Of a stretch of 64,000 nt of DNA, positions 3,291-48,164 are shown piece by piece (positions within the stretch are counted from its first letter, which is position 1; each line of letters opens with the position of its first letter). Where the stretch lies: the NCBI GenBank assembly GCA_002347565.1, contig DDXR01000049.1, positions 42,302 through 106,301 of the forward strand, written 5' to 3'. Origin of the DNA: a bacterium UBP2_UBA2255 (GTDB lineage Bacteria; Edwardsbacteria; AC1; EtOH8). Position numbers and translations under genes: made by a program. Below the pieces are notes generated by a model. The model saw nothing but the letters and a program-made list of their open reading frames with translations, was not told where the DNA came from and searched no databases.

Positions 3291-3303
3291 CACCTCCCTT
3301 GAC

Positions 3304-3328
3304 CCTCCCCGAAAGCGTTCGGGGAGGG
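3304..3328 (+). terminator. GC-rich hairpin directly after the oxidoreductase stop (CCCTCCCCGAA-AGCG-TTCGGGGAGGG), no U-tract
   Basis: 11-bp perfect stem seen in sequence; lacks T-run so could be a factor-dependent terminator or stability element. Confidence 0.3.
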
Positions 3329-3359
3329 TAGGGTGGGGTCAAGATATTGCATTAAGTGC

Positions 3360-3388
3360 TTGACAAATCAGGCATTCTGATGTAAAAT
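3360..3388 (+). promoter_or_regulatory. sigma70-like promoter TTGACA-17nt-TAAAAT with an ATCAG-N5-CTGAT palindrome in the spacer (operator-like)
   Basis: TTGACA 3360-3365, TAAAAT 3383-3388, 17-nt spacer containing inverted repeat ATCAGgcattCTGAT. Confidence 0.45.
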
Positions 3389-3394
3389 ATCCCA

Positions 3395-3584
3395 GAATTA
3401 TTAATCCAAGGGAGCGTACGGGCGAGAGCGTTAAAGTCGGCGGTTTTCGGACATTCTGACATACCTTCGAAAGCTCGGGATTGCTCGAAACCCCGCTTTG
3501 GCGCCCCGTATCCAAGCTTCTTTGGAGACAAAGGATCGCGTATTCCTTTGCCGGGCGCCGTTTAGCGGCCGCCCGGTTTTTTTA
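3395..3584 (+). ncRNA. candidate ~190-nt small RNA or cis-regulatory leader (promoter to intrinsic terminator) upstream of polysaccharide locus
   Basis: Bounded by the promoter above and a strong intrinsic terminator; no plausible ORF with RBS; internal hairpin CAAAGGA-N8-TCCTTTG; identity unknown. Confidence 0.2.
3551..3584 (+). terminator. rho-independent terminator (CCGGGCG...CGCCCGG stem followed by TTTTTTT)
   Basis: GC stem-loop plus 7-T run on + strand at 3577-3583. Confidence 0.6.
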
Positions 3585-3760
3585 TCCTATGAACTGCAGT
3601 GCATCGAGCAGCCCGCCGCAGGTCGAGTGGCCGCCATCTCGATATGAACCGGTATAGGTTCTACTCGATGTGCGGCTGTATCGAGACCCGGCGGGCATAT
3701 CGAGAGGCGCGGCCAACAACTATCACCGGAGAGAACATGCCTAAACACAGGGATTTGATC

Positions 3761-4690
3761 ATGAGACATCGCATCATTGTTGTCGCATCGATAGCCTTGA
3801 TGCTCGTCCTGGCCGTGCCGGCGTTCTCCCAGAAGACGATCATCCCCCAGATCGGCCTGGACTGGACCCGGGAGCGACCGGCGATCAAGGTGCAGGTGCT
3901 GGGCCAGGTGCGCAACCCCGGGCTCCACACCCTGCAGGCGTACGACCGGCTGGCCAGCGCCGTGGGCGCGGCCGGCGGGCCGAACGAGCAGGCGTCGATC
4001 CGCTCGGTGATCCTGATGCGCGACGGCAAGGCGATCGATACGCTCGACCTGTACCAGTACATGACCCAGAACGACCAGTCCCAGAACCCCGAGGTCAAAG
4101 ACGGGGACATCGTGTTCTTTCCCCTGGCCACCAACATGGTCACGGTCTTCGGCCAGGTGTTCAAGCCGGGGAAGTACGAGATCAAGCCGGGCGAGCGGCT
4201 GATGGACCTGGTCATCATGGCCGGCGGTTTCACGCCATTCTCGACCCGCGAGGACATCAAGGTCCAGAACATAGCCCGGCCGGACAGCGTGATAAGCATC
4301 AACGTCAAGCGGTTCGCCCTGGACCGCGACCCGGCGTTGAACATCGAGCTCAAGGCCGGCGACATCGTTACCGTGCCGACCACCCCGACCACCGTTACCG
4401 TGGTGGGACAGGTGCAGAAGGGCGGCACCTTCCCGTACGAGCCGGGAACGCTGCTGTCGTACTACCTGGGCATGGCCGGCGGGTACGCCGAGCGGGCCAG
4501 CACCGGGAACATCCGCATCAACCGCTGGGGCGGCAAGACGGTCAAGGGCAGGGAGAGCACCATCATGGAGCCGGGCGACGTGGTTGTGGTGGGGGAGATG
4601 CAGATCAAGGGCTGGCGCGACTACATCAACCTGATCGCCCAGGTGGCGACCACGGGTTTCATTGTATGGCAAGTTGCACGGGTACAATAG
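3761..4690 (+). CDS. polysaccharide export protein, Wza-like (SLBB domains) with signal peptide
   Basis: Signal peptide MRHRIIVVASIALMLVLAVPAFSQ; soluble-ligand-binding beta-grasp repeats (GDIV.VP...V.V.G.V..PG.Y); start chosen at signal peptide; ORF extends upstream to 3599. Confidence 0.7.
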   Translation: MRHRIIVVASIALMLVLAVPAFSQKTIIPQIGLDWTRERPAIKVQVLGQVRNPGLHTLQAYDRLASAVGAAGGPNEQASIRSVILMRDGKAIDTLDLYQYMTQNDQSQNPEVKDGDIVFFPLATNMVTVFGQVFKPGKYEIKPGERLMDLVIMAGGFTPFSTREDIKVQNIARPDSVISINVKRFALDRDPALNIELKAGDIVTVPTTPTTVTVVGQVQKGGTFPYEPGTLLSYYLGMAGGYAERASTGNIRINRWGGKTVKGRESTIMEPGDVVVVGEMQIKGWRDYINLIAQVATTGFIVWQVARVQ

Positions 4691-4698
4691 GAGGGACT

Positions 4699-5898
4699 AT
4701 GTTCAACAGCTTCTACGACGTCCTGGTGGTACTGGTCAAGAACCGGCGGATGATCCTCTGGAACACTGCTGGATTCACGGTCTTAGCTCTCGTACTGAGC
4801 CTGGTGATTCCTAACAAATATAAAGCCACGGCCACCTTGATGCCTCCGGTTTCACAAGGATCGAACAATTTAATGTCGATGGCGTTGCGGGGGAATTTCA
4901 TGTCCGCTGATCCCGAGATCGGCGGCACCGGGTTCATGCCGGGCATGGTCACACCATCGGACGTGTTTGCCTTCATGCTCGAGAGCGGTACTGTAGCTGA
5001 CATCGTCATCCGGGAATGCGATTTGGTCAACCACTACAAGCAGACGAAAACCTTCGTTAATAAACAGGACAAGGCGATGTACAACATCGCCAAGAAACTG
5101 AAGAAAGCCACCAAGGTCAAGGTCACGGACGAACGGTTCATCATCATCACGGTCGAGGACAAGAGCAAGACCAAGGCGGCCGAGATCGCCAACAAGTACG
5201 GCGAGGCGCTGGACCGGGTCTACGCCAAAATGACCATGACCCAGGGCGGCAAGATGCGGGAGTTCATCGAGAGAAGGTTGGGGCAGGAGGAACTCCTGCT
5301 GCGACAGACCGAGGACTCACTAAAACGGTTCCAGCAGCGTTACCGGACAATCTCGTTGGGCGACGAAATGAAGGCCGTTATCGAGATGTCGGCCACGCTG
5401 GAGGCCAAGATCATCAGCCAGAAGATCGAGCTGGACGCCATCAAGTCGTACGCCACAGCGGACAATACCCAGGTGAAAGTGATGGAGAACCAGATCCAGA
5501 AATCTCAACAGGAGCTGAACCAGCTGGTCGGCGGCAGCCGTGGCAACACGCTGTTCGTCTCGTTCGCCAAGGCCCCCGAGATCGGTGCCATGATGGGCCA
5601 GCTGACCCGGGATGTGCGGATCCACCAGGAGCTGTATGCGCTGCTGGTGCAGCAGCTGGAGCAAGCGAAAATATTGGAGGCCAAGGATACGCCCAAGGTT
5701 CAGTTCCTGGAACGCGCGGCGCCGCCGTACCGGAAGAGCTGGCCCAAGCGGTCGCTTCTAACGGCACTGGGATTAATCGCTGGACTGGTGAGCAGCATCG
5801 TCGCGATACTGGTGGCTCGCAGAATTGAGGCGTTCTTGACGGATTCCGGCCGCAGAGGTCAATTGGCGGAATTCAAGAAGATGCTTACAGCCAAGTGA
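4699..5898 (+). CDS. Wzz-like chain-length determinant / polysaccharide co-polymerase (no BY-kinase domain)
   Basis: N- and C-terminal TM helices flanking coiled-coil periplasmic region; AGGAGGGA RBS before ATG 4699; AT-rich codon usage. Confidence 0.65.
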   Translation: MFNSFYDVLVVLVKNRRMILWNTAGFTVLALVLSLVIPNKYKATATLMPPVSQGSNNLMSMALRGNFMSADPEIGGTGFMPGMVTPSDVFAFMLESGTVADIVIRECDLVNHYKQTKTFVNKQDKAMYNIAKKLKKATKVKVTDERFIIITVEDKSKTKAAEIANKYGEALDRVYAKMTMTQGGKMREFIERRLGQEELLLRQTEDSLKRFQQRYRTISLGDEMKAVIEMSATLEAKIISQKIELDAIKSYATADNTQVKVMENQIQKSQQELNQLVGGSRGNTLFVSFAKAPEIGAMMGQLTRDVRIHQELYALLVQQLEQAKILEAKDTPKVQFLERAAPPYRKSWPKRSLLTALGLIAGLVSSIVAILVARRIEAFLTDSGRRGQLAEFKKMLTAK

Positions 5899-5938
5899 TG
5901 CGACTGGAAGTACAATCGCCGTGCCCTTCTATCGAGCG

Positions 5939-7282
5939 ATGATGAAACGATTTCGGCACACCGTTGCTATTGCCTTGGGGTCCGCCCTGCTGCTGCTCGC
6001 TGTCTTTCAACAGTGGATCGTGCTGGGACTATTGTTCGGCATTAGCATCGCAGTGTCGCTTTTCTTAAAGATGCACACCAGACCGGAAATCATCCTTACG
6101 GTTTGCATGATACTTGGATTTGCACCTTCGCCATCGCGGTATTTCGGGTATGTGCTTTTTATGCTTGTCGCATTTGAACTGCTGTCTCGTCGCGGACCGA
6201 ATGCTCCGTGGAGGAACACGATTGATGTCGTTACTGTCGCCTGGTCTTGCATTGTTCTGTTTGGTCTCTTAACCGTACCACGGTGGCAGTTGCCTTTGGA
6301 AGGAATACAGTGGTCGCTGTCATTAGGATTGATGCCTCTTATTACTTATCTCATGGTCGGAGGTGGTATTTTGCGACCTGAGGAGTTGCGATGGATATTG
6401 GACAGGGGATTGCCGCTCGTATTTTTGTTCGTTGTTGGTGAGACACTTATCGCTGCGATAATCATCGCTGTTCAACAGCAATCCCTCAATAACTGGGTAG
6501 GTATTTATAGTTTTAGGAAACTGATGATACCGGACAATGGCAGCAACAGGCTGGCCGCACTGCTCGTCTTTATATCGGTGTTCAATTACACCAAGAACGT
6601 CACATGCCGCCGTGAGATGGCAAGTGAAACAAGAACAGTGATAGTATCGCTCGTAGCATTGGGACTGTCATTGTTGATCATGTCGCGCGGAGCGATCGTC
6701 GGCCTTGGTGTCGCAATAGCGGCATTCGTGTTGGGAAAGATTATCAAAGATAGACGGATCAGCGTAGTGCCGATAATTGTAATGATGCTGGTCCTATTTG
6801 TGGTTGCGAAGCCCTTCATTGATGAAGTAATATTCCGAATGCAGAACGTTCGATTTGACATGTCAACGCTCTATCGTCTCGGCATGTGGCAGCAAAGCAT
6901 TCTGTCTATCGGCAGGAACCTGGTGATCGGGTCGGGGCCCGGTCAACGGTCGTACGATATCATGAACGAGCAGCACGAGGACCCCCATAACATGGTGCTA
7001 CGCTATGGCGTAGAATACGGCGGCATAGCGGCACTGCTGATAGTGGTCATCCTGCTCTACCCGGTGATCCTTTACATAAGGCTGTTCCGCCGCGACCCTT
7101 CGTACGCGAAAAAACTATTTCTTGTGTTCAGCCCCGCGTTACTCGGTGTCACCGTTCACGCCCAGATGGATTTTGTGATAACGTCAAAGAGTTTCGGCCC
7201 GCTTTATTGGTTGGTTTGGTCGATGCAATTGCGGGCATTGCGAGACCATGATGACGGACGACTGATCAATACGTCGTCGTAG
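5939..7282 (+). CDS. Wzy-type polysaccharide polymerase / O-antigen ligase family membrane protein
   Basis: ~11 predicted TM helices, large periplasmic loop with GSGPGQ...H..N motif region typical of Wzy_C; start ambiguous (GTG 5921 or ATG 5939). Confidence 0.6.
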   Translation: MMKRFRHTVAIALGSALLLLAVFQQWIVLGLLFGISIAVSLFLKMHTRPEIILTVCMILGFAPSPSRYFGYVLFMLVAFELLSRRGPNAPWRNTIDVVTVAWSCIVLFGLLTVPRWQLPLEGIQWSLSLGLMPLITYLMVGGGILRPEELRWILDRGLPLVFLFVVGETLIAAIIIAVQQQSLNNWVGIYSFRKLMIPDNGSNRLAALLVFISVFNYTKNVTCRREMASETRTVIVSLVALGLSLLIMSRGAIVGLGVAIAAFVLGKIIKDRRISVVPIIVMMLVLFVVAKPFIDEVIFRMQNVRFDMSTLYRLGMWQQSILSIGRNLVIGSGPGQRSYDIMNEQHEDPHNMVLRYGVEYGGIAALLIVVILLYPVILYIRLFRRDPSYAKKLFLVFSPALLGVTVHAQMDFVITSKSFGPLYWLVWSMQLRALRDHDDGRLINTSS

Positions 7283-7289
7283 TATTGCG

Positions 7290-8549
7290 ATGAAAGCCTA
7301 CAGAACTATTTGGGAAAACCTGCTGTCGTTGCTGGGTCTCCAGGTCGTTAATTACCTGCTGCCGTTGGTGTCTTTCCCGTACATCGTGCGAGTTGTGGGG
7401 ATCGATGGATTTGGGTTGTTCTCATTCATATTTTCGATAAACCAGTACTTTGTCATTCTAACCGATTACGGATTTAACCTGACAGCGACGCGTGATATTT
7501 CGATAGCTCGGCATGAACCGCAAAGGGTCTCGGAGATATTTTCGGCAGTGATCATCATTAAGTCTTTGTTCTTGCTTGCCAGCATAATATTGATGACCGG
7601 CGCAGTGCTGATGGTCCCAAAACTTCACGAGCATTGGACGTTGTACATGCTGTCGATGCTCAGCGTACTAGGGAATGTTTTATTTCCGGTATGGTTCTTC
7701 CAAGGCGTCGAACTTACCAAATACATCGCGGTCATCAATGGCGCAGTTAAACTGGTAGCAACGGCCTGTATCTTTTTATTTGTAAAGGTGGGCAGTGATC
7801 TCTCGGTGTTAGTGTTCATCCAGTCAGTTGGCGTTGTCGTGGCCGGTGTGGCATCGCTTCTCCTGATCTGGCGGCAGCGATCGGTGCGATTGGTGTGGCC
7901 GAGCAGCGGGACGATCACGCGGATGATGCGGTCCGGTCGCGAAGTGTTCCTGACGATCATATCCTCGACCTTGGTCAACAACACCAACATATTTTTACTC
8001 GGCATGTTAACGGACAACATGACGGTAGGGTTCTTTTCGATCGCCGATCGGATCGTTCGGGTGTTCATATCGCTTTGCGCACCGGTCAGCACCGCAATAT
8101 TCCCTTACGTGAGTAAAGGCTTTGGCGAAGATCGAAAGAAGACGATGTCTTTCCTGCGGCGAGTATTGACCATCGGGGGGTTAGCTTTCGGTTGTTTTGT
8201 AATGGTCCTATTGATTGCGCCGGACCTGCTGGTGCGAATCGTCACCGGCAGTGATTCGTCGCGGATAAGCCTGCTGGTAAGAATCATGTCTGTGGTGCCG
8301 CTCAGCATATTCATTGACAACCTATATGGAACACAAATATTGATCAACGTCGGAAGGACATCTGATTTTCTCAAAGCGGTCTTCATTCCTGGTGTGTTAT
8401 CAGTATTGGCCGCTTTGGTAGTGTACCCTGTCTTTAAGGATCTCGGGGCGGCAGTGGTATTCACTGTCGCTGAGCTGATGATCTTGGTATTCATGATTCA
8501 CTATGTGCGAGGGCAGCAGCTGTACCTGGTTCGGGATGGGTGGTTATGA
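7290..8549 (+). CDS. wzx: Wzx oligosaccharide flippase (MOP superfamily)
   Basis: Typical Wzx N-terminus (LLSLLGLQVVNYLLPLVSFPYIVRVVGIDGFG), 12 TM helices. Confidence 0.8.
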   Translation: MKAYRTIWENLLSLLGLQVVNYLLPLVSFPYIVRVVGIDGFGLFSFIFSINQYFVILTDYGFNLTATRDISIARHEPQRVSEIFSAVIIIKSLFLLASIILMTGAVLMVPKLHEHWTLYMLSMLSVLGNVLFPVWFFQGVELTKYIAVINGAVKLVATACIFLFVKVGSDLSVLVFIQSVGVVVAGVASLLLIWRQRSVRLVWPSSGTITRMMRSGREVFLTIISSTLVNNTNIFLLGMLTDNMTVGFFSIADRIVRVFISLCAPVSTAIFPYVSKGFGEDRKKTMSFLRRVLTIGGLAFGCFVMVLLIAPDLLVRIVTGSDSSRISLLVRIMSVVPLSIFIDNLYGTQILINVGRTSDFLKAVFIPGVLSVLAALVVYPVFKDLGAAVVFTVAELMILVFMIHYVRGQQLYLVRDGWL

Positions 8550-9793
8550 AGATCGCCGTCTGGCACAACCTGCCGCATGGTGGAGGGCGTCGCGCCCTGC
8601 AGGACCATATCGCCGGACTTGCCTCGCGAGGGCATACCGTCAAAATCTGGCAGCCATCGGATGTGGCGCCACTCAATCTGCGAAAGGGGATAGCAGCTGA
8701 GCTCACACTTGTCGATCATCATTCCACATACCGGTCGGATGCTCCCTCGCCGAGAGGACTCATGCGACTGGTGGCGTATCAGCAGACCATTGCGACCCTC
8801 AATCGGAACGCGGCCGTAACCGCGTCGATGATACACCGGTCCGGTTGCGATGTACTCTTCGCCAATACCTGCCGGTTTATGGGTTCCCCGTTCATTGGAA
8901 GGCATGTGGAAATACCCTCGCTGCTGTACCTACAAGAGCCGTGCCGCGTACACTATGAAGCTATGCCTGAGAACCCATGGGCGGCCCCAGGCAGATTGAC
9001 ACGTGCCGGGAATTCGGCTCATGCGCTCGCCCGGCGTATGGAGAACGCCGTCAAGGTCTATGCTTACCGGCGAAAAGTGCGCGAGGAGATTGAGAACGCG
9101 CGGTCGTACCACCGAATCTTGGTCAACTCGTGCTATAGCCGCGAAAGCATCCTACGGGCTTATGGCATTGAAGCATCTGTGTGCTACCTGGGGGTTGATA
9201 CCGAGTTGTTCCATATGCAAGGTTCCCCGAATCGCCTGCACATGATCCTGACGGTCGGATCGGTCACCCGGCTGAAGCGCATCGATGCGGTTCTTGATGC
9301 TTTGGCCCTGGTGAGGCATCCGAGGCCGCGGTATGTGATCGTCGCCAGTACCTACGATGAGGATTATTGCCGGGAGCTCGTGAGGAACGCATCAAGGCAC
9401 GGCATCGAGTTCGAGTTGCGACGGAACGTCCCAGACGATGAACTTGTATCGTTGCTCTGCCGGGCCAAGGCGGTCGTGTACGCACCACGATTGGAACCGT
9501 TCGGGTACGGACCTCTTGAAGCCAACGCGTGCGCCACACCTGCGATCGGTATTGATGAAGGCGGGCTGCGGGAGACAATCGTCAACGGCGAGACTGGTGT
9601 GCTCGTCGAAAATGAACCCCGACATATCGCAGATGCTATCGAGATGTTGTGCCAGGACAGAGAGGCTCGCGAACGCCTCGGCGCACGAGGCAGAGAGTAC
9701 GTTATGGAGCGGTGGACGCTCCAGGCCGCGAACGAAAGACTCGCGGCTCATCTGGATCAGATCGTGGTACGATTTCCCGCAGGTGGAAGATGA
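8546..9793 (+). CDS. glycosyltransferase family 4 (GT-B fold)
   Basis: C-terminal E-x7-E region (EPFGYGPLEANACATPAIG...GETGVLV); 4-nt overlap with wzx stop. Confidence 0.75.
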   Translation: MKIAVWHNLPHGGGRRALQDHIAGLASRGHTVKIWQPSDVAPLNLRKGIAAELTLVDHHSTYRSDAPSPRGLMRLVAYQQTIATLNRNAAVTASMIHRSGCDVLFANTCRFMGSPFIGRHVEIPSLLYLQEPCRVHYEAMPENPWAAPGRLTRAGNSAHALARRMENAVKVYAYRRKVREEIENARSYHRILVNSCYSRESILRAYGIEASVCYLGVDTELFHMQGSPNRLHMILTVGSVTRLKRIDAVLDALALVRHPRPRYVIVASTYDEDYCRELVRNASRHGIEFELRRNVPDDELVSLLCRAKAVVYAPRLEPFGYGPLEANACATPAIGIDEGGLRETIVNGETGVLVENEPRHIADAIEMLCQDREARERLGARGREYVMERWTLQAANERLAAHLDQIVVRFPAGGR

Positions 9794-9797
9794 CGCT

Positions 9798-10742
9798 ATG
9801 GCGAATCATGCGACGGTTATAACAGTCTATCATGATGGGATGCCTGCGCTGCTCCAAATGATCGCAAGCGTCTACACACACCACGCGTTGATTGCTGATG
9901 TGATCATCGTGAATAACTCTAACGAAAGAATCGATCATCTGTCTCAGAAGAGGCACGGCGCGCCGTTCCGGGTCCGCATCATCGAGTCAGGCCGTAACAT
10001 CGGATTCGGTGCCGCGAACAACCTCGCACTACGCAGGACCCAGACCGATTACGTGCTGTTGCTAAACCCTGACGCGCAATTAACCGGTGGATTTCTAGAA
10101 GCCGCGATAGTCATGATGGACGAACGACCGGAGATAGCGGCGGTAGGCCCGAAACTGGTCGATTTCTATGGCAACCCTCATGCATCCGCGTTCACTTCCC
10201 CTTCCTGCGCATCGTACTTTATCGATGCGTTCGCGCTGGGACGCTTTGTCGATAGAAGGCGTACGCCCGCGCGCGAAATCAACCTCTGCGGTTACCTGTG
10301 CGAGACAGCTGATTGGCTGTGTGGCGCAGCGGTGGTCCTCCGGCGAAAAGTTCTCGACCAGATAGGGAGGTTCGATGAAGACTATTTCCTGTATTATGAA
10401 GACACCGACCTGTTCATGCGCATCCGAATGAACGGATCAGTTGTGATGCATTGCCCCCAGTTTATAGTGCGGCACGTTGGCCGGAACGAGGATGGGCTTT
10501 ATTGCGACAAGTTCAATTCAAGCACACGGATCGTGCACCATAGCAGAAGCGTGCTGACATATTGGCGTAAGCACGGCCGACAGCAAATGCCGATCGTTCG
10601 GGCTATCTTGTGCGCCAGCTCCATCTTCAAGTTTTGGACATGGGCGTTGTTGATGCTGATCTCGAGAAAGACTGGATTCACGGCTGTGCGCCAGCGCCTG
10701 CGGGGGTATGCCGAAGCCGCTGCGATCGCCTTGTTCGAATGA
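9798..10742 (+). CDS. glycosyltransferase family 2
   Basis: GT-A signatures (VITVYHDG, NIGFGAANN, LLNPDA, YYEDTD); AGGTGGAAGA RBS. Confidence 0.75.
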   Translation: MANHATVITVYHDGMPALLQMIASVYTHHALIADVIIVNNSNERIDHLSQKRHGAPFRVRIIESGRNIGFGAANNLALRRTQTDYVLLLNPDAQLTGGFLEAAIVMMDERPEIAAVGPKLVDFYGNPHASAFTSPSCASYFIDAFALGRFVDRRRTPAREINLCGYLCETADWLCGAAVVLRRKVLDQIGRFDEDYFLYYEDTDLFMRIRMNGSVVMHCPQFIVRHVGRNEDGLYCDKFNSSTRIVHHSRSVLTYWRKHGRQQMPIVRAILCASSIFKFWTWALLMLISRKTGFTAVRQRLRGYAEAAAIALFE

Positions 10743-10870
10743 TACACCCATAAAAAGCCCACGTCATTGTTCTGGAATACGTGCCCGTTTGGGAAATCTG
10801 CAAACGACACGAGCGAAGATACCTATGGTTTTTCGGCTGTAGTGCGCCACCAGCCTATAGCAGTATAGCT

Positions 10871-11068
10871 ATGATAGTGATCGACGCCCGGAAAAACTGC
10901 GATTCCGGTATAGGCATCTAGCTGCGTAGCCTCATCGACCATCTTAATGGCCGGCACGATCTGACCGTTCTGATGGCTCGCGATATGGTGTTGTCGGACA
11001 AGTTCGCGGAAACGTACATATATTCTCGTCAGCAGCCAACCCAACACCATGAAGACGTATTGAAATAA
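10871..11068 (+). pseudogene. truncated glycosyltransferase-4 N-terminal fragment with in-frame TAG (MIVIDARKNCDSGIGI*LRSLIDHL...)
   Basis: First ~65 codons resemble N-terminus of the GT4 gene at 12505 (MIAFDARMSERSGIGSYVRNLL); amber codon at 10919-10921 replaces the conserved aromatic; frame ends at TAA 11066-11068 with no remaining catalytic domain. Confidence 0.5.
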
Positions 11069-11289
11069 TGTGGAAGTGCTCGGTCTGCGATGTGTTTATC
11101 TTACCATGCAACAACATCCCGTTGCTGACAATGCCGACGAGGCGGCTGATCGTGTTCATTCAGGATATCCAGCATCTGCCGGCGAGCGCTGGGTATGGGC
11201 CGCAAAACAGGCGTGTGCTAGAATCATGATCAACTTGTTATTCCCGTTGGTCTTTGCCAAAGGGTAACCGCTTGAATGGATACAGTAAA

Positions 11290-12153
11290 ATGAACGCGAA
11301 TATGAATGACCCATGCATCGCTTGTAAAAGCAAATATTACAGAGTGGTTTTTAACGAATTTGGGATTGATATAGTTCAATGCAAATGCTGCGGCCATTTG
11401 TTCTCAACATTCCCGGGTGATCAAAACTACAACGGTTATTTCGGTGAGCAACAGATCGAATCATGTAAGCAATTCTGGTGGGACGATGCGCATCGCGATA
11501 TGTATGCTGACTTCTACCGACGATTTATAAACAAGAAAACAGGTACATTGCTGGATGTCGGCTGTGGCCTGGGCTATTTTGTCAAAAATATGTCAGTAAT
11601 ACCGTGCTGGGAGGTCTACGGTTGTGAAATATCTCGGGTAGCAGTAGCCTATGCCCGCAACAAACTTGGACTCAAGAACATTTATGAGGGGAAAATAGAG
11701 GAAATTGATTTCGGGTGCAGGACCTTTGATATCATAACACTGTGGGATGTTATTGAACACATTCCGAATCCCTATCCTCTTCTTGTCCGAATCTATTCGT
11801 TACTCAAGCAGGGAGGCATGCTATTCCTTCACACCCCCAATGCCCGCATCCAGTTGCCGAAAGCACGGATGAAACAGCTGATCATGCGCAGAAACCCGCA
11901 CGCCCATTTTCTTGAGGCAAAAGACCACATGAACATCTATACCGACAAATCGATATCTGCCGTACTCGGACGAAGTGGTTACATCTCGGTACAATTTCTG
12001 CATCTTAAACCATTGCAGAGTGTCGCTGGCAGTCGGAATGCTCTATTCGTCATCATCAAGAACTTATGGGCGTCTCTCTCAAGAATAATATACGTTTTAT
12101 CGAAGAGACGAATCAACATCGGGAATTTGTTCGTCGTCGCGTATAAACAATAG
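11290..12153 (+). CDS. class I SAM-dependent methyltransferase with N-terminal Cys4 zinc ribbon
   Basis: CIACKS...CKCCGH zinc ribbon, LLDVGCGLGYF SAM motif I, DIITLWDVIEH motif; very AT-rich; start ambiguous (TTG 11254, ATG 11290/11302). Confidence 0.7.
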   Translation: MNANMNDPCIACKSKYYRVVFNEFGIDIVQCKCCGHLFSTFPGDQNYNGYFGEQQIESCKQFWWDDAHRDMYADFYRRFINKKTGTLLDVGCGLGYFVKNMSVIPCWEVYGCEISRVAVAYARNKLGLKNIYEGKIEEIDFGCRTFDIITLWDVIEHIPNPYPLLVRIYSLLKQGGMLFLHTPNARIQLPKARMKQLIMRRNPHAHFLEAKDHMNIYTDKSISAVLGRSGYISVQFLHLKPLQSVAGSRNALFVIIKNLWASLSRIIYVLSKRRINIGNLFVVAYKQ

Positions 12154-12504
12154 CGAACGATTATCCCATCAGCTCAGGAACACCCGGGGAAAGCCATTTA
12201 CGGTCAGTTCGACTTCTCTCGATGACCGGGAATACGCACCCCGAGCGGAGTCGAGAAATGCAGTAACGTGCCATCCTGAATATATGGGATAATCACTCAA
12301 TAGAGATATGCCACCCGCAGGCTATTTCTTCTGTTCGCCGCGGCGGCATCGGATGGTCGGTTTGATGAAGAAGCACGAGAGTTACAACTCAATGAACTAC
12401 AATTCTCTTGATATCCGGTTGCAGGTTATACATAGCGCCACGAAATAGTAATGACAAGCTAGTTCTATAAAAGAAATGCAGTTTAAAAAAGTGATGGTGC
12501 CGGC

Positions 12505-13602
12505 ATGATCGCCTTTGACGCAAGAATGTCAGAGCGTTCTGGTATCGGTTCGTATGTGCGAAACTTGTTGGCACAATTCGCGGCAATGGACCGGCCGCCA
12601 AAGCTGACCGTGATCGGTGACCAAGATATCCACCGCTACTGGCGGCGACCGATTGTCTGCCGTAGCCCGATATACAGTATTCAGGAGCAACTGTCTATTC
12701 CAGTGGTGGCGCATAATTGCAACGTCTTTCATGCGCCGCATTACAACGCCCCGCTGCTGTTCCGCGGCCGTCTGGTCGTGACTATCCACGACCTCAATCA
12801 TCTCACGTTTTATGATGAATTGCCGACCATCGCCCACAAACTGTATGCCCGTCTGATGATGACGTTAGCCGTCCGGCGGGCCGACCACATCATGACGGAT
12901 TCCGAGTGGACACGGCGCGACCTCCTCCGACGATGGCCCGACGCAGCGACGAAGACGGAGGTTGTACATAACGGTATTGATCCACAATTGCGACGGACGA
13001 TCGAACCGGCTGTGCCAGCGAAATATGGCATCACCAAACCATACGTTCTTTATCTGGGACTGCTGAAACGGCATAAAAACATCACGCGACTGATCGAAGC
13101 TTTCCTGGCGGCCCAAGACGAATTGAAGGGTGAGTTCCAATTGGCCATCGCGGGAGATCCGACCAGCGACGATATCGGCCTTCGTGATTTTATCGTGCGA
13201 CGGCGATCATCCGAAATCGTACGGTTGATAGGATTCATTGCGCCGGGTGACATCGCCCCGTTGTATAGCGGCGCGAAGGTGTTCGCCTTCCCATCGCTGG
13301 CCGAGGGCTTCGGCTTGCCGCCGCTGGAGGCGATGGCCTGTGGCACGCCGGTGATCGCCAGCAACGCGAGCTGCCTTCCCGAGGTCCTGGGCGGCGCACC
13401 GCGTTTCTTCGACCCCCGCGACGTGGCTGACATGGCGGCGTCGATCGTGTCCGCCGTCCGGGACGAAGCCTGGCGGTTCGCAGCCATCGAGCGCGGCTAT
13501 CGCACCACGGCCAAGTACCGGTGGGAGGATACGGCGCTGGCCTGCATACGCGCATATAGTGCAGCCGATACGACGGTTGCCAATGGGAGTGGTGGGCGGT
13601 GA
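12505..13602 (+). CDS. glycosyltransferase family 4
   Basis: GT4 C-terminal motif (FPSLAEGFGLPPLEAMACGTPVIASN). Confidence 0.8.
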   Translation: MIAFDARMSERSGIGSYVRNLLAQFAAMDRPPKLTVIGDQDIHRYWRRPIVCRSPIYSIQEQLSIPVVAHNCNVFHAPHYNAPLLFRGRLVVTIHDLNHLTFYDELPTIAHKLYARLMMTLAVRRADHIMTDSEWTRRDLLRRWPDAATKTEVVHNGIDPQLRRTIEPAVPAKYGITKPYVLYLGLLKRHKNITRLIEAFLAAQDELKGEFQLAIAGDPTSDDIGLRDFIVRRRSSEIVRLIGFIAPGDIAPLYSGAKVFAFPSLAEGFGLPPLEAMACGTPVIASNASCLPEVLGGAPRFFDPRDVADMAASIVSAVRDEAWRFAAIERGYRTTAKYRWEDTALACIRAYSAADTTVANGSGGR

Positions 13603-14747
13603 CCCGCGAACGGAACAACCGGGTTTATAAATGGCTGGACGGACACATTGGACCGCCGATCATCGCGATGAAGGCAGCGCTTGATATGCGGCAACGGCCT
13701 TGCGATCAGCGTGTGTCCAACCGATCACCCAGGATCGCATTGGTGAAAACGGAATCCATAGGCGATACGTTGCTGACCGAACCGCTGATTAAAAGCATCA
13801 AACATGTCCATCCCGCGGGTGCGATCACGTACATCTGCATGTCGAACAACGTTGACGCGGTCAGGGGTCTGGATGGGATCGATGAGATCATCATCTTTGA
13901 TCTCGGGGCACCGCTACGATCGCTGTGTCGATTGACGAGGCTGCGACCGTTCGACGTGGTGATTGACTGCGGTTCCTGGGCCAGGATCAACAGCGTGATT
14001 GCAACCACAGTGCCCGCCGCATGCCGTGTGGGCTTCCGTACCGCCAGCATGCACCGGCACTATGCCTACGATATCGTCGTTGACCATGATTCCGGCATCC
14101 ATGAACTTGACAACTATCGCAACCTGCTACGGGCCGCCGGCATCACCCCGCAGCGGTCGGCACCGCGCTATGTCATCGGCCGGCAAGCTGCCGGGGCACC
14201 GGTGTTCCCGTTGCCGTCGCTGGGTGAATACGTCGTCCTGCACATTCATCCCGGCGGCGCCCAGCGGCATCTGAAGTGCTGGCCGGATGCCCAATGGATC
14301 GAACTGGGGAGGCGTCTGATCGGCGCCGGGATCCGCATCTATATTAGCGGCGGTCGCGGCGATGCCGTTGGTGCAGGGCGCATTGCGAACCTGATCGACG
14401 GCGTCCACTGCGCGTCGCTGGCTGGTCAGCTGTCTCTGGATCAAACCGCGCAGCTGATCGCGGGATCCCGTCTGCTGGTCACCGTTGACACCGGTATCAT
14501 GCACCTCGGAGCAGCCGTCGGGGCGAATGTCATCAGTCTACATGGACCGACCTCGCCACGACGGTGGGGCGGCATCGGCCGATCGGTCACGCCAGTTTGC
14601 ACGACGGCCAGCTGTGCCCCATGCATCAACCTGGGCTTCGATTCACCCTGTCGGCACGGCGGCTGCATGGACCTCATCACTGTTGATGCCGTGTTCACTC
14701 AGGCAGCCGAACACCTGAAACGCACCGGACGCGGACGGCCATCGTAG
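13599..14747 (+). CDS. glycosyltransferase family 9 (heptosyltransferase-like)
   Basis: GT9 features: KTESIGDTLLTEPL, ISGGRGD, VTVDTGIMHLGAAVG, LHGPTS; start uncertain (GTG 13599 overlapping, or downstream ATG 13668). Confidence 0.65.
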   Translation: MTRERNNRVYKWLDGHIGPPIIAMKAALDMRQRPCDQRVSNRSPRIALVKTESIGDTLLTEPLIKSIKHVHPAGAITYICMSNNVDAVRGLDGIDEIIIFDLGAPLRSLCRLTRLRPFDVVIDCGSWARINSVIATTVPAACRVGFRTASMHRHYAYDIVVDHDSGIHELDNYRNLLRAAGITPQRSAPRYVIGRQAAGAPVFPLPSLGEYVVLHIHPGGAQRHLKCWPDAQWIELGRRLIGAGIRIYISGGRGDAVGAGRIANLIDGVHCASLAGQLSLDQTAQLIAGSRLLVTVDTGIMHLGAAVGANVISLHGPTSPRRWGGIGRSVTPVCTTASCAPCINLGFDSPCRHGGCMDLITVDAVFTQAAEHLKRTGRGRPS

Positions 14748-14761
14748 CCGGGAGCGAAGTT

Positions 14762-15736
14762 ATGAGCGGCACTAACGCCGGTACAGCGTACCTGGTCACC
14801 GGCGGCAGCGGGTTCATCGGCGGGCACCTGATCGTCGACCTGCTACGGGACCCGGGCACCGCCCGGGTGGTCAATATCGACCTGCGCCCGTACCCGGGCG
14901 CGGTCGACCCTCGCCTGGAGACGGTGATTGCGGACATCAGAAAGCCGCTGGCGGCCGGCCTGCCGGCGGGGGTCGGCACCTGCTTCCACCTGGCCGCGGT
15001 CTGCCGCGAGCCGGGCCACCGGCGGGAGGAGTACTTCGAGACCAACCATCGCGGGACCGGCAACGTGATCGACCTGTGCCGGCGACAGGGCATCCACAGC
15101 ATCGTCTTCACCAGCACCATCATGGTCTATTCGCCCGGGGACGCCCCGTGCGACGAGTCGGCGACCACTCGGCCCAACACTGCTTACGGGGAATCGAAGC
15201 TGCTGGCGGAGCGCGAGCTGGAGCGGTGGGGGGCGGAGGGGCGACACCTGCGGATCGTACGGCCCGGCGTGGTGTTTGGTCCGGGCGACTACGGCAACTT
15301 CATCCGATTGCACCGCGCGCTGCGGAGCAACCTGTTCTGCTACGTCGGCCGCCGCACCACAGTCAAGGGCAGCGTCTACGTCCGTGACGTGGTGTCGTGC
15401 CTGCGGTTCATGGAGACGGCGGCGGCGCGGAGCGCTGTCTACAACTGCGTGTTCCCGGGGCGGTACACCATCGGCGAGATCGTCGCCGCCATCTGCACCG
15501 CCGAGGGATGGCGGCGTTGGGTGCCGGTTCTGCCGTACCGGCTGATGCGGGCCCTGGCGGCGGTCGGGCCCTGGCTGGACGCGGCCGGGCTGCGCAACGG
15601 GCTCCATCCCCGCCGCATCGACAAACTGTACCAGTCAACTGACGCGGTGCCGCAGGCGCTGGCGCGCGATGGGTTCGGGTTCCGGTACGATCTGCGTGCC
15701 GCTGTCCGGGAGTGGCTGTGCGGCGCGGCATCCTGA
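14762..15736 (+). CDS. NAD-dependent sugar epimerase/dehydratase (extended SDR)
   Basis: TGGSGFIGGHL Rossmann motif, YGESK catalytic Y-x3-K. Confidence 0.75.
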   Translation: MSGTNAGTAYLVTGGSGFIGGHLIVDLLRDPGTARVVNIDLRPYPGAVDPRLETVIADIRKPLAAGLPAGVGTCFHLAAVCREPGHRREEYFETNHRGTGNVIDLCRRQGIHSIVFTSTIMVYSPGDAPCDESATTRPNTAYGESKLLAERELERWGAEGRHLRIVRPGVVFGPGDYGNFIRLHRALRSNLFCYVGRRTTVKGSVYVRDVVSCLRFMETAAARSAVYNCVFPGRYTIGEIVAAICTAEGWRRWVPVLPYRLMRALAAVGPWLDAAGLRNGLHPRRIDKLYQSTDAVPQALARDGFGFRYDLRAAVREWLCGAAS

Positions 15737-15795
15737 ACGGCTGGATCTCCGGTGGCAGCACAGTTGCTGTATCGGAGTAGCCATTCGACGGCTGT

Positions 15796-17193
15796 ATGCG
15801 ATGGGGGCATTCAATGCTGAGGGATAAACGTACGGTCCTCCGCTTGTCGATGATGGCCATCGATATGGTGATCACCGTGGCCGCCTTCTTCACGGCGTAC
15901 TGGCTGCGGGTGGCGCTGCCGGTGCCGTGGTTCCAGGAGGGCGGCGTCTACCCGCTGGCGGTCACCATGAAGGCGCTGCTGCTGCTGCTGCCGCTGTGGT
16001 GGTCCCTGTATCAGCGCCTGGGCCAGTACCATCCGATCAAGATCCTGGGCCGCTACACCCTGCCGCTGCTGCCGGCCTACCGCGCCAACCTGATCGGCTT
16101 GGCGGTGGCCATCATCATCGCCTACTTCCTGAAGCTGGCGTCGGTCAGCCGGGCGCTGGTGCTGCTGTTCTTCATCGTCAACTGCCTGCTGCTGACCCTG
16201 TGGCGCCTGCTGCTGCTGTTCTCCCCCCGGCTGTCTTCCAGCAGCCGCGACAGCCGGCACGTGCTGCTGGTCGGGGACGCGGGCCGCCTGCCGCAGCTCG
16301 GGGCGTTCGAGCGCCTGGGAGAGGAGTGGGGCGTCACGGTGGTGGAAACCCTGGAACGTCGCGATCCGGAGCGGCTGGGCGCGGCGCTGCAGTCGATGGT
16401 GGTCGACGACGTGGTGTTCACCCTCGGCCGGACCAAGCTGCACGACCTCGAACCGGACATCCTGCTGTGCGAGGAGCGGGGGGTGGCCATCCACATCGTG
16501 ACCGACTGGTTCCGGGACCGCACCGGCCGGGCCAGGATGGACGAGTTCTACGGCATCCCTGTGATCTCCATCGATTCCACCAAGCGGCGGGCCTGGGAGG
16601 TGGTGGCCAAGCGGACCATCGACCTGCTGTGCTCCGGCCTGGCGCTGATCGCGCTGGCGCCGCTGCTGGCGGTGATCGCCGCGCTCATCAAGCTGACGTC
16701 GCCCGGGCCGGTGCTGTTCGCGCAAACACGGGCCGGCCTCAACGGGCGGCCGTTCCGGCTCTACAAGTTCCGTTCGATGATCCAGGGCGCAGAAAAACTG
16801 CAGGACAAGCTGCAGGACCGGAACGAGATGTCCGGCCCGGTGTTCAAGATCGCCAACGACCCGCGGCTGACGCGCGTCGGGAGGTTCCTGCGCCGCACCA
16901 GCCTGGACGAGCTGCCCCAGCTGTGGAACGTCCTGCGGGGCGACATCAGCCTGGTGGGCCCGCGGCCCCTGCCGGCCTACGAGGTCAAGAAGTTCAAGCT
17001 GCGCGAGCAGCGCCGCCTCAGCGTCATGCCGGGCATCACCTGCCTGTGGCAGATCAGCGGCCGGAACGAGGTCGGTTTCGACGAATGGATGCGTCTCGAC
17101 ATGCGGTACATCGACACCTGGTCGCTGTGGCTGGACATCAAGATACTGCTGCTGACGATCCCCGCCGTGCTGGTGCAGCGGGGGGCGAGGTAG
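15796..17193 (+). CDS. undecaprenyl-phosphate hexose-1-phosphate transferase (WbaP/WcaJ/EpsL family initiating enzyme)
   Basis: N-terminal TM block, C-terminal bacterial sugar transferase domain (RPFRLYKFRSM, DELPQLWNVLRGDISLVGPRP). Confidence 0.85.
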   Translation: MRWGHSMLRDKRTVLRLSMMAIDMVITVAAFFTAYWLRVALPVPWFQEGGVYPLAVTMKALLLLLPLWWSLYQRLGQYHPIKILGRYTLPLLPAYRANLIGLAVAIIIAYFLKLASVSRALVLLFFIVNCLLLTLWRLLLLFSPRLSSSSRDSRHVLLVGDAGRLPQLGAFERLGEEWGVTVVETLERRDPERLGAALQSMVVDDVVFTLGRTKLHDLEPDILLCEERGVAIHIVTDWFRDRTGRARMDEFYGIPVISIDSTKRRAWEVVAKRTIDLLCSGLALIALAPLLAVIAALIKLTSPGPVLFAQTRAGLNGRPFRLYKFRSMIQGAEKLQDKLQDRNEMSGPVFKIANDPRLTRVGRFLRRTSLDELPQLWNVLRGDISLVGPRPLPAYEVKKFKLREQRRLSVMPGITCLWQISGRNEVGFDEWMRLDMRYIDTWSLWLDIKILLLTIPAVLVQRGAR

Positions 17194-17248
17194 CGGGACG
17201 GCGGCGCGGCCCGGGACGGCCGCCGGCACACGGAACGAGGAGGGATGG

Positions 17249-19010
<1,762 letters not shown>

Positions 19011-19068
19011 GACCGGCATGAAGGCACGGCGATCCCGGGCCGCCGGCCGGCCCGGCAGGGGCGGCTGA

Positions 19069-24950: not shown

Positions 24951-24959
24951 CACGAAGAC

Positions 24960-25736: not shown

Positions 25737-25792
25737 GCCGGCGGCGCGCGCCAGGCCGCGGAAGCGGCGGCACCACCAAGCGCGGAGGGACG

Positions 25793-26524: not shown

Positions 26525-26552
26525 CCGCTTGCCTCAGACGAGCAGGGCCCCG

Positions 26553-29691: not shown

Positions 29692-29719
29692 AGCGGGGCG
29701 GCGCGACGGCGCCGCGGGG

Positions 29720-31991: not shown

Positions 31992-32044
31992 CGGGCCGGC
32001 TGATCGGCCGGCGTACGAAAGGAGTGCAATCCATCATGGAAGCC

Positions 32045-32284
32045 CAGACCAAACAGCGGCTGATCGCCGCCATCAGCTCCGTGTTCGACCGCTTCAATCC
32101 CGACCAGTTCAGCGAGGAACTGATGCTGGGCGACATCCCGGACTGGGACTCGATGAACGGCATCAATCTCCAGATGGCCGTCGAATCGGAGTTCTCGGTC
32201 GAGCTCAAGGACGCGTCCCTCGCCGGCACCGACCGCGTCGCGGACATCCTGCGGCTGCTGCGCGGACAGGGTGTCGCGGTCTGA
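32045..32284 (+). CDS. acyl carrier protein
   Basis: 79-aa acidic protein with phosphopantetheine attachment DSM motif (GDIPDWDSMNGINL). Confidence 0.8.
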   Translation, partial: QTKQRLIAAISSVFDRFNPDQFSEELMLGDIPDWDSMNGINLQMAVESEFSVELKDASLAGTDRVADILRLLRGQGVAV

Positions 32285-32350
32285 CGGCCGCGGCCTGGTC
32301 GCCGCCAGAATCAGGGCAAGCCAACCGTCCCATCTAAGCGGGCTGGAGCG

Positions 32351-48077: not shown

Positions 48078-48164
48078 GCCGGGATGGTGGAATTTTGGTA
48101 GACACGTACGTTTGAGGTGCGTATGGCGCAAGCCATGTGGGTTCAAGTCCCACTCCCGGCACCA
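48078..48164 (+). tRNA. tRNA-Leu (anticodon GAG), class II with long variable arm
   Basis: Manual fold: 7-bp acceptor GCCGGGA/TCCCGGC, 3-bp D stem, anticodon stem TACGT/GCGTA with loop TTGAGGT (U33, G37), variable arm ATGGC-GCAA-GCCAT, T arm GTGGG-TTCAAGT-CCCAC, discriminator A, encoded CCA. Confidence 0.8.

What the first reader, a model, noticed from the sequence alone, without database searches (positions are those of the whole stretch)
4699..12504. AT-rich island inside a high-GC polysaccharide locus: laterally acquired serotype cassette
Base composition drops sharply from ~68-70% GC in the flanks to roughly 40-55% between ~4.7 and 12.5 kb. The drop is most extreme in the methyltransferase gene 11290-12153 and the wzx gene. 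The island carries its own wzz, wzy, wzx, GT4, GT2 and methyltransferase genes. It is bounded on the right by a 350-bp AT-rich non-coding gap (12154-12504) before GC-rich genes resume. This is the signature of a horizontally exchanged O-antigen/EPS central region from a lower-GC donor.
Basis: seen in the sequence. Interest (0 to 1): 0.6.

Follow-up and report, generated by a model that had tools for sequence, protein, structure and literature searches.

The report
Swappable low-GC surface-polysaccharide gene cassette
The AT-rich stretch is the hypervariable core of a surface-polysaccharide gene cluster in an uncultured Candidatus Edwardsiibacteriota bacterium; a sister strain carries a different core between near-identical flanks, which is the textbook serotype-cassette pattern seen here in a little-studied phylum.

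Summary
The GC drop is real: 0.52 for 4699-12504 against 0.68 elsewhere, with gene GC3 z-scores of -4.4 to -8.2. The gene content (wzz, wzy, wzx, GT4, GT2, methyltransferase) is confirmed. The edges need correcting. By GC3 the atypical block runs from about 5750 to 14747, so the GT4 and GT9 genes after the '350-bp gap' are still GC-depressed. That gap holds a relic of a glycosyltransferase-like gene.

A sister strain with 98.8-100% identical flanks has wza-wzz only 78.5% identical and no DNA similarity across 5753-12312.

No integrase, tRNA or flanking repeats border the island, and there is no plasmid or phage match.

The 'lower-GC donor' claim is only partly supported. The best homologues (55% or less for Wzx, 57% or less for the methyltransferase) lie in Edwardsbacteria/TA06 genomes within the same locus architecture. 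All seven loci examined show a wzy-wzx GC deficit of 11-27 points. The swapped segment also carries a wza with native GC3 (0.91), so the immediate donor was probably a high-GC relative.

Verdict: an ordinary, well-known phenomenon in a new lineage.

Side finds: a conserved structured leader RNA with a terminator upstream of wza, and an 82-bp inverted hairpin segment.

The parts
3360..3388 (+). Sigma-70-like promoter TTGACA-17-TAAAAT upstream of the locus
   Evidence: 11 of 12 consensus matches. The same CTTGACAA...TAAAAT box lies upstream of wza in L005, L025, L026, L029 and L033; the L032 box has CTTGACAAAC.
3403..3586 (+). Conserved structured leader RNA ending in a bulged intrinsic terminator (about 3550-3586)
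   Evidence: RNA fold z-score -5.0. In an 8-sequence alignment, 94% of cells are paired and 13 of 29 pairs show compensatory change, against 5.1 +/- 1.6 in shuffles. No Rfam match. One copy per locus.
3613..3694 (.). 82-bp segment inverted relative to L005 and L014, bracketed by imperfect inverted repeats (core GCCCGCCG / CGGCGGGC); part of a long 5'-UTR hairpin
   Evidence: Local alignment score to L005 is 146 in reverse against 88 forward, with about 93% reverse identity. The segment is only 56% identical to its own reverse complement, and it folds equally well in either orientation.
3737..4690 (+). wza-like outer-membrane polysaccharide export protein (SLBB domains); conserved arm of the locus with native GC3 of 0.91
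   Evidence: Pfam SLBB and SLBB_2. 77-82% aa identity to L014, L005, L032, L033 and L034, and about 62% to L025, L026 and L029.
4699..5898 (+). wzz-like chain-length regulator (Wzz plus GNVR, no kinase domain). DNA similarity to every relative ends at about 5744-5753.
   Evidence: Pfam. Breakpoints. Identity profile. The family is nearly restricted to Edwardsbacteria/TA06.
5921..7282 (+). wzy-like polymerase (Wzy_C); hypervariable core, GC 0.50, GC3 0.59
   Evidence: Pfam. 26-30% identity to near relatives and 41% to the low-GC genome L025.
7290..8549 (+). wzx flippase (Polysacc_synt); GC 0.49, GC3 0.63
   Evidence: Pfam. Best non-self homologue is 55% identical, from candidate division TA06. 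38-46% identity to L014 and L005.
8546..9793 (+). GT4 glycosyltransferase (GT4a)
   Evidence: Pfam Glycos_transf_1. 42-44% identity to L005 and L025 homologues, and non-orthologous in L014.
9798..10742 (+). GT2 glycosyltransferase
   Evidence: Pfam Glycos_transf_2. Gene start taken from the call in L001.
10743..11289 (.). 547-bp non-coding spacer upstream of the methyltransferase; GC 0.50 measured over 10743-11253
   Evidence: No similarity to relatives and no Pfam hit in any ORF.
11290..12153 (+). Class I SAM-dependent methyltransferase; the most AT-rich gene (GC 0.44, GC3 0.51). Likely a secondary module insertion.
   Evidence: Pfam Methyltransf_23, _11 and others. The best homologue (57%) lies in the same locus type next to a GT9 gene in L029.
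12154..12504 (+). Spacer containing a gene relic at 12312-12433 (C-terminus of a hyp406/GT-A-like gene that is intact in L014), plus the right recombination junction (12434-12491)
   Evidence: blastn 81% identity and tblastx 72.5% over 40 aa (E 7e-15) to L014 positions 8450-8574; the reading frame then ends in stop codons. L014 hyp406 gives a weak Nucleotid_trans hit.
12505..13602 (+). GT4 glycosyltransferase (GT4b); conserved between sister strains but GC-depressed (GC3 0.68)
   Evidence: Pfam. 98.6% aa identity to L014. 50-53% to L029 and L026.
13599..14747 (+). GT9 (heptosyltransferase-family) glycosyltransferase; GC3 0.70; marks the right end of the compositional island
   Evidence: Pfam Glyco_transf_9. 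97.1% aa identity to L014 and 44% to L029.
14762..17193 (+). Native-GC right flank: NAD-dependent epimerase (14762-15736) and Bac_transf initiating sugar-phosphate transferase (15814-17193)
   Evidence: Pfam. GC3 0.89 and 0.94.

Best explanation
The region is the hypervariable core of a Wzx/Wzy-dependent surface-polysaccharide locus that is ancestral to the Candidatus Edwardsiibacteriota/TA06 lineage. The gene order is promoter, leader, wza, wzz, wzy, wzx, GT4, variable glycosyltransferases and modifying enzymes, and then (in most of the relatives examined) an initiating transferase.

The inferred function is as follows. Glycosyltransferases (GT4a, GT2, GT4b, GT9) build a repeat unit on a lipid carrier. 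It is probably primed by the adjacent Bac_transf enzyme. The methyltransferase decorates it, Wzx flips it, Wzy polymerises it, Wzz sets chain length and Wza exports it.

Different strains carry different cores, which would give different glycans ('serotypes'). The cores are exchanged by homologous recombination in the conserved arms. In this strain pair the exchanged unit runs from the leader/terminator region (about 3.6 kb) to just upstream of GT4b (12.43-12.49 kb).

The low GC is a standing property of the core gene pool throughout the lineage. It is partly ameliorated here (GC3 0.5-0.66, against about 0.3 in lower-GC relatives and 0.9 in the host). It is not the footprint of a recent import from a foreign low-GC organism. 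The methyltransferase is a later module that replaced most of a GT-A-like gene and left a relic.

Shown directly: composition, gene families, strain-level replacement, breakpoints, incongruent similarities and the relic. Inferred: the biochemical pathway, the direction and age of transfers, and the antigenic consequence.
For: Composition: (GC3 z-scores -4.4 to -8.2).

Internal control: a second polysaccharide cluster in the same window has a wzx (19069-20352) and a wzy (33010-34248) with GC3 of 0.90. Low GC is therefore not a membrane-protein effect.

Gene families.

Strain replacement: L014 has 98.8-100% identical flanks, 78.5% identical wza-wzz and no similarity across 5753-12312.

Common breakpoint: DNA similarity ends at 5744-5753 in five independent comparisons.

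Same architecture with different GT sets in L005, L025, L026, L028, L029, L032, L033 and L034.

Incongruence: Wza and Wzz are 81-82% and 72-73% identical to the high-GC relatives L014 and L005, and about 62% to L025, L026 and L029. Wzy and Wzx are 41% and 54% identical to low-GC L025, against 26-30% and 38-46% to L005 and L014.

A wzy-wzx GC deficit of 0.11-0.27 occurs in 7 of 7 loci.

Relic of the replaced gene.

There is no integrase, transposase or adjacent tRNA, and there are no flanking repeats. There is no plasmid or phage match.

The same pattern is documented for Salmonella O-antigen clusters (PMC3715488).
Against: Only one sister-strain contig family (L014-L017, from related samples) documents the swap, and which strain carries the derived allele is unknown.

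The right flank of the nearest named genome (L005) was not reached.

Wza and Wzz are as similar to those of roughly 48%-GC genomes (L032, 78-80%) as to the sister strain's. The 'conserved arm follows species' picture is therefore only approximate, and the arms themselves are probably exchanged too.

No glycan chemistry, expression data or reads were available. The Bac_transf enzyme next to the island is only 29-31% identical to the one that closes the locus in relatives, so its assignment as the priming enzyme is an inference.
Confidence: 0.8

Rival explanations
1. Recent lateral acquisition of the whole 4.7-12.5 kb block from an unrelated, lower-GC donor organism.
For: Strongly atypical GC, GC3 and codon usage. 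The methyltransferase family is spread over many phyla, including CPR, Planctomycetota and Endomicrobiia. Wzy and Wzx are closest to a lower-GC genome, L025.
Against: No homologue exceeds 57% identity in a 5.8-billion-protein search. The best hits lie in the same locus type within the Edwardsbacteria/TA06 lineage. The core GC3 (0.5-0.66) is far from the roughly 0.3 of those relatives, which implies long residence at high GC. The swapped segment includes a wza with native GC3 of 0.91. The same GC deficit appears in all 7 loci.
Confidence: 0.08
2. No transfer: the core diverged in situ, and its low GC is kept by selection or mutational bias, for example rare codons limiting wzx/wzy expression.
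For: The GC deficit of the core is universal in the lineage and scales with host GC (Spearman 0.74, p = 0.058, n = 7). Reeves et al. note that the consistently lowest GC of wzx/wzy 'needs explanation' (PMC3715488).
Against: A strain with 98.8-100% identical flanks has a non-homologous core. Similarities of Wzy and Wzx are incongruent with those of Wza, Wzz and the flanks. A gene relic marks a replacement event. The second cluster's wzx and wzy have native GC3 of 0.90. Selection may still help maintain low GC alongside exchange.
Confidence: 0.1
3. A self-mobile genomic island (integrative element, transposon or phage-borne cassette).
For: Sharp composition change and non-coding spacers around the methyltransferase.
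Against: The 64-kb window has no integrase, transposase or recombinase. The only tRNA is 35 kb away. There are no meaningful flanking direct or inverted repeats. There is no DNA match in plasmid or phage collections. The junctions lie in homologous sequence.
Confidence: 0.02

Closest known systems
Enterobacterial O-antigen gene clusters (e.g. Salmonella enterica rfb/O-antigen locus; Reeves et al. 2013, PMC3715488)
   Same: A Wzx/Wzy-dependent pathway occupies a fixed chromosomal locus. Flanks are conserved and the centre is non-homologous between strains. [quoted passage not shown] There is a composition and divergence gradient towards the arms, donors are unidentified, and exchange occurs by recombination in the flanks.
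   Different: The host is an uncultured candidate phylum with 68% GC. The locus includes wza and wzz as the semi-conserved left arm (more like capsule/EPS loci). It has no galF/gnd-type housekeeping flanks and no JUMPstart/ops element was recognised. The deficit is seen across hosts spanning 49-71% flank GC.
Group 1 capsule / EPS loci with Wza-Wzc (E. coli K30 cps, Klebsiella K loci)
   Same: A conserved 5' export module is followed by a serotype-specific region with wzy, wzx and GTs. K-locus swapping by recombination is well known (my own knowledge).
   Different: The PCP protein here has no tyrosine-kinase domain, and no Wzb phosphatase or separate kinase is present. The Wza homologue matches SLBB domains only.
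Bacteroides capsular polysaccharide loci with invertible promoters and UpxY antitermination
   Same: Variable polysaccharide loci are preceded by a regulatory 5' region. Here that region is a promoter plus a leader with a terminator, and a small IR-flanked segment whose orientation differs between genomes.
   Different: No promoter was found inside the inverted segment. There is no recombinase and no upxY/upxZ nearby. No orientation heterogeneity was seen in 3 assemblies of the same population. The inversion is neutral for the predicted RNA fold.

Membership tests
Wzx/Wzy-dependent polysaccharide biosynthesis locus | Wzx flippase (PST family) present | tested here: met
   PF01943 Polysacc_synt, E 1.4e-51, gene 7290-8549.
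Wzx/Wzy-dependent polysaccharide biosynthesis locus | Wzy-type polymerase present | tested here: met
   PF04932 Wzy_C, E 9e-15 (55 bits against a cut-off of 31.7), gene 5921-7282.
Wzx/Wzy-dependent polysaccharide biosynthesis locus | Polysaccharide co-polymerase (Wzz/PCP) | tested here: met
   PF02706 Wzz and PF13807 GNVR, gene 4699-5898. No kinase domain.
Wzx/Wzy-dependent polysaccharide biosynthesis locus | Initiating polyprenyl-phosphate sugar-phosphate transferase | tested here: inconclusive
   A PF02397 Bac_transf gene at 15814-17193 is adjacent, but it has native GC, lies outside the island and may belong to the second cluster. It is only 29-31% identical to the Bac_transf that closes the locus in relatives.
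Wzx/Wzy-dependent polysaccharide biosynthesis locus | The product is a polymerised surface glycan | not testable with these tools
   Needs chemistry or genetics in an uncultured organism.
Horizontally exchanged serotype (O-antigen/K-locus type) cassette | Closely related strains share flanks but have a non-homologous centre at the same site | tested here: met
   L014 compared with the window: 98.8-100% flanks and no similarity across 5753-12312.
Horizontally exchanged serotype (O-antigen/K-locus type) cassette | Atypical composition of the centre | tested here: met
   GC3 z-scores -4.4 to -8.2.
Horizontally exchanged serotype (O-antigen/K-locus type) cassette | Core genes phylogenetically incongruent with flanks | tested here: met
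   Pairwise identities only, no trees. Wzy and Wzx are closest to L025, whereas Wza, Wzz and DAO are closest to L005 and L014.
Horizontally exchanged serotype (O-antigen/K-locus type) cassette | An identifiable lower-GC donor | tested here: not met
   Best non-self identity is 55-57%. The immediate donor probably has high GC, because wza GC3 is 0.91.
Mobile genomic island (integrative element) | Integrase or transposase, tRNA or att site, flanking repeats | tested here: not met
Invertible promoter (inverton) controlling a polysaccharide locus | Segment flanked by inverted repeats and found in both orientations | tested here: inconclusive
   Imperfect IRs are present and orientation is opposite between genomes. 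Three assemblies of the window population share one orientation. No reads were available.
Invertible promoter (inverton) controlling a polysaccharide locus | Promoter inside the segment and a site-specific recombinase | tested here: not met
   The only promoter-like site in 3200-3800 is at 3360-3388, outside the segment. No recombinase is present in the window.

The most novel reading that the evidence does not exclude
The conserved promoter, structured leader RNA and terminator upstream of wza might form a previously undescribed cis-regulatory RNA. It could be a riboswitch or an antitermination target that gates expression of the hypervariable polysaccharide locus across Edwardsiibacteriota/TA06. 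In the high-GC clade, the IR-flanked 82-bp segment behind it might be a programmed invertible switch, not a neutral hairpin inversion.
Probability: 0.2. Interest if true: 0.6.

Novelty: new member of a known kind. Interest (0 to 1): 0.3.

Why it matters
The finding extends the classic picture of a low-GC, recombining serotype cassette from enterobacteria and other cultured pathogens to an uncultured candidate phylum from anoxic environmental samples.

It also adds a useful data point to an old open question. The wzy-wzx GC deficit persists in every host examined, across flank GC of 49-71%. That argues the deficit is a maintained property of the cassette pool and not simply a mark of a recent foreign origin.

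In practice, it warns that composition alone mislocates the exchange boundaries. The true junctions lie at about 3.6 kb and 12.45 kb, and homology to all relatives is lost at about 5.75 kb. Strain-level glycan diversity exists in these communities, which may be relevant to phage or predator pressure.

Tried and rejected
1. The metagenome-contig scan anchored on DAO found only relatives at 46% identity or less, none from this clade.

2. The genome-contig scan gave one close genome, L005. Its fetched flank ended before the right arm of the locus, so the right junction in that species is unknown.

3. L001-L004 turned out to be 99.99-100% identical to the window. They are the same population and not independent relatives.

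4. The repeat search at the island borders found only chance-level short repeats.

5. Rfam searches (gathering threshold on the whole window and three loci; E-value mode on 3250-3800) found only tRNAs and sub-threshold noise.

6. The spacer at 10743-11289 has no similarity to relatives and no Pfam signal.

7. The idea that low GC reflects the amino-acid composition of membrane proteins was rejected, because the second cluster's wzx and wzy have GC3 of 0.90.

8. The idea that the inversion changes RBS accessibility was rejected, because the native and flipped folds are equivalent.

9. Plasmid and phage DNA searches found no match.

10. The covariance model of the leader found no further copies in the window or the loci.

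Full report
OBSERVATION

The window averages 65.8% GC. The stated interval 4699-12504 is 52.0% GC, the remainder is 67.7%, and 15001-64000 is 68.0%. In 500-bp windows, GC falls from 0.70-0.74 at the left end to 0.43-0.60 inside the interval and returns to 0.65 or more only after about 14.3 kb.

I took 36 other genes of the window as background (GC3 0.904 +/- 0.047, GC 0.685 +/- 0.024). Against that background the genes score as follows:
- wzy: GC3 0.59, z = -6.6
- wzx: GC3 0.63, z = -5.9
- GT4a: GC3 0.65, z = -5.4
- GT2: GC3 0.65, z = -5.3
- methyltransferase: GC3 0.51, z = -8.2
- GT4b: GC3 0.68, z = -4.7
- GT9: GC3 0.70, z = -4.4

Codon-adaptation z-scores for the same genes run from -3.1 to -5.1.

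wza has native GC3 (0.91). wzz is intermediate (0.79), and its GC3 drops in the last ~150 bp of the gene.

It also shows that the two genes after the '350-bp gap' are a GT4 and a GT9 glycosyltransferase.

A second polysaccharide cluster lies at 15.8-34.2 kb in the same window. Its own wzx and wzy have GC3 of 0.90. The low GC is therefore not a by-product of encoding membrane proteins.

However, the compositional island ends at 14747, not 12504.

WHO IS THE HOST

Exact-protein look-ups found the island on four metagenome contigs that are 99.99-100% identical to the window. They represent the same population, not independent relatives.

The closest named genome is a Candidatus Edwardsbacteria MAG (Prado126, locus L005). 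Its DAO protein is 90% identical, and 5.75 kb of collinear DNA is 84.6% identical. NCBI places it in the candidate phylum Edwardsiibacteriota.

The rest of the window is housekeeping: cmk, ispH, rpsA, ispG, RNase G and a V-type ATPase. It has no integrase, transposase or recombinase. The only tRNA is at 48078.

COMPARISON WITH RELATIVES

The decisive comparison is with L014 (identical to L015-L017), found through a 98.6%-identical GT4b. Against the window it shows:
- 100% identity over 3079-3279 and 98.1% over 3415-3572
- 98.8% identity over 12491-14870
- only 78.5% identity over wza-wzz (3746-5753)
- no DNA similarity over 5753-12312

In that central stretch Wzy is 30% and Wzx 39% identical. 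The GT4 and GT2 genes are not orthologous, and a 406-aa GT-A-like gene sits where the window has its methyltransferase.

This is a cassette replacement between near-identical backgrounds. Its left junction lies in the leader region at about 3.6 kb, not at 4699.

The window's 351-bp 'non-coding gap' contains a relic at 12312-12433. It is 81% identical in DNA and 72.5% identical over 40 aa to the C-terminus of that 406-aa gene, and the frame then runs into stop codons. The methyltransferase module therefore replaced most of a pre-existing gene. It is also bounded upstream by a 547-bp featureless spacer.

A LINEAGE-WIDE LOCUS

The best Wzx homologues are 55% identical (candidate division TA06) and 46-50% identical (Edwardsbacteria and unnamed MAGs).

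The best methyltransferase homologue is 57% identical.

Wzz homologues are almost all from Edwardsbacteria/TA06.

Every context I fetched has the same layout: wza, wzz, wzy, wzx, a GT4 or methyltransferase gene, and then a different set of GTs and modifying enzymes. In L025, L026, L028 and L029 a Bac_transf gene closes the locus. The methyltransferase's best homologue sits next to a GT9 gene in such a locus (L029).

DNA similarity of the window to L005, L014, L032, L033 and L034 ends at the same place, 5744-5753, about 145 bp before the wzz stop.

Similarities are incongruent. Wza and Wzz are closest to the high-GC relatives L014 and L005 (81-82% and 72-73%) and about 62% identical to L025, L026 and L029. 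Wzy and Wzx are closest to low-GC L025 (41% and 54%) and only 26-30% and 38-46% identical to L005 and L014. The arms are themselves not strictly vertical. The wza-wzz of L032, a genome with about 49% flank GC, is as close to the window's (78-80%) as the sister strain's.

WHAT THE LOW GC MEANS

In all seven loci where flanks could be measured, wzy plus wzx are 11-27 GC points below their own flanks.

Hosts with 55-59% flank GC have cores of about 30% GC (GC3 0.26-0.33). The two 68-69% GC strains have cores of 49-56% GC (GC3 0.58-0.66). L005 has a core of about 60% GC (GC3 0.81-0.84).

The deficit is thus a standing feature of the core gene pool, partly tracking the host. This is the situation Reeves et al. 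describe for Salmonella, where GT, wzx and wzy genes are 28-37% GC in a 51-52% genome. They note that the especially low GC of wzx and wzy 'needs explanation' (PMC3715488).

The segment that differs between the window and its sister strain includes a wza with native GC3 (0.91 here, 0.83 in L014). The most recent exchange was therefore most likely between high-GC relatives.

An older origin of the core among lower-GC members of the lineage is plausible but unproven. A foreign low-GC donor is not supported.

MECHANISM

There are no mobility genes, no att-like repeats and no plasmid or phage matches. The junctions lie in homologous DNA. Exchange by homologous recombination in the conserved arms is therefore the best-supported mechanism. 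This is an inference from the pattern, not an observed event.

Function is inferred from the families. The locus would assemble a lipid-linked repeat unit, methylate it, flip it (Wzx), polymerise it (Wzy), control chain length (Wzz) and export it (Wza).

SIDE OBSERVATIONS

Upstream of wza there is a strong sigma-70-like promoter (3360-3388, 11 of 12 consensus positions). A box of the same form lies upstream of wza in L005, L025, L026, L029, L032 and L033.

It is followed by a 185-215-nt leader that ends in an intrinsic terminator immediately before the wza ribosome-binding site.

An 8-sequence alignment, representing about three independent lineages, supports three nested helices, a hairpin and the terminator. 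Of all cells, 94% are paired. Thirteen of 29 pairs show compensatory change, against 5.1 +/- 1.6 in shuffles and 0-4 in slid controls. No Rfam family matches.

Only the high-GC clade has an additional quasi-palindromic segment of about 125 bp between the terminator and the RBS. Its 82-bp core (3613-3694) is inverted in the window relative to L005 and L014.

That core folds equally well in either orientation and leaves RBS accessibility unchanged. It contains no promoter-like site. It has the same orientation in three assemblies of this population. A neutral hairpin-mediated inversion is therefore more likely than a programmed switch.

L014 lacks the 3' half of the terminator and the left inverted repeat.

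VERDICT

The boundaries and the 'lower-GC donor' inference need revision.

The phenomenon is well known. The novelty here is limited to the host lineage and to the demonstration that the GC deficit persists across hosts of very different GC.

Noticed in passing
window 3360-3586 (+); also L005 11180-11410, L025 6141-6408, L026 5224-5451, L029 366-768, L032 8843-9050, L033 1078-1294, L034 1-215: A conserved sigma-70-like promoter is followed by a roughly 185-215-nt structured leader RNA that ends in an intrinsic terminator directly upstream of wza. The structure has covariation support, a near-invariant UUAAAGU motif and no Rfam family. It is a candidate cis-regulatory (riboswitch or antitermination) element for the polysaccharide operon.
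   Followed up: yes
window 3597-3722, core 3613-3694: An IR-flanked 82-bp core of a long 5'-UTR hairpin is inverted relative to L005 and L014. It is present only in the high-GC clade. It has no internal promoter and no nearby recombinase, folds equally well in either orientation, and has the same orientation in 3 assemblies of this population.
   Followed up: partly
L014 380-410, compared with window 3560-3625: The sister strain has a roughly 60-bp deletion that removes the 3' half of the leader terminator, the left inverted repeat and the first bases of the invertible core. This might cause constitutive read-through into wza.
   Followed up: no
window 12312-12433: A pseudogene relic (about 40 codons followed by stop codons) of the C-terminus of a GT-A-like 406-aa gene that is intact in L014 (7480-8700). 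It marks replacement of that gene by the methyltransferase module.
   Followed up: yes
window 15796-34248: A second, larger polysaccharide cluster has native GC. It contains Bac_transf, a short Wzz-like gene, epimerases, wzx, asparagine synthase, several GT4 genes, TylF-type and other methyltransferases, a DegT aminotransferase, a KAS-III-like gene, a hexapeptide acyltransferase and wzy. It served as an internal composition control.
   Followed up: partly
window 10743-11289: A 547-bp spacer between GT2 and the methyltransferase (GC 0.50 over 10743-11253) has no similarity to relatives and no recognisable ORF. Its origin is unknown.
   Followed up: partly
window 3290-3345: A GC-rich palindrome (CCTCCCTTGACCC...GGGGTCAAG) lies right after the DAO stop codon. 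It is conserved in L005 and is probably the DAO terminator. It produced a spurious reverse-strand blast match.
   Followed up: no
L029 395-545 and L033 925-1075: These two relatives carry a roughly 170-nt insertion between the promoter and the conserved leader. The insertion is absent from L025, L032 and the window.
   Followed up: no
P0258: A Wzz protein 74% identical to the window's sits on a 6.6-kb contig labelled Rhodocyclaceae in NCBI. All other close homologues are Edwardsbacteria/TA06, so this is probably a mis-binned contig.
   Followed up: no
L032 18308-21191: In this lower-GC relative, the dTDP-sugar isomerase, epimerase and DAO genes lie downstream of the locus. In the window, the isomerase and DAO lie upstream. 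The locus neighbourhood has therefore been rearranged within the lineage.
   Followed up: no
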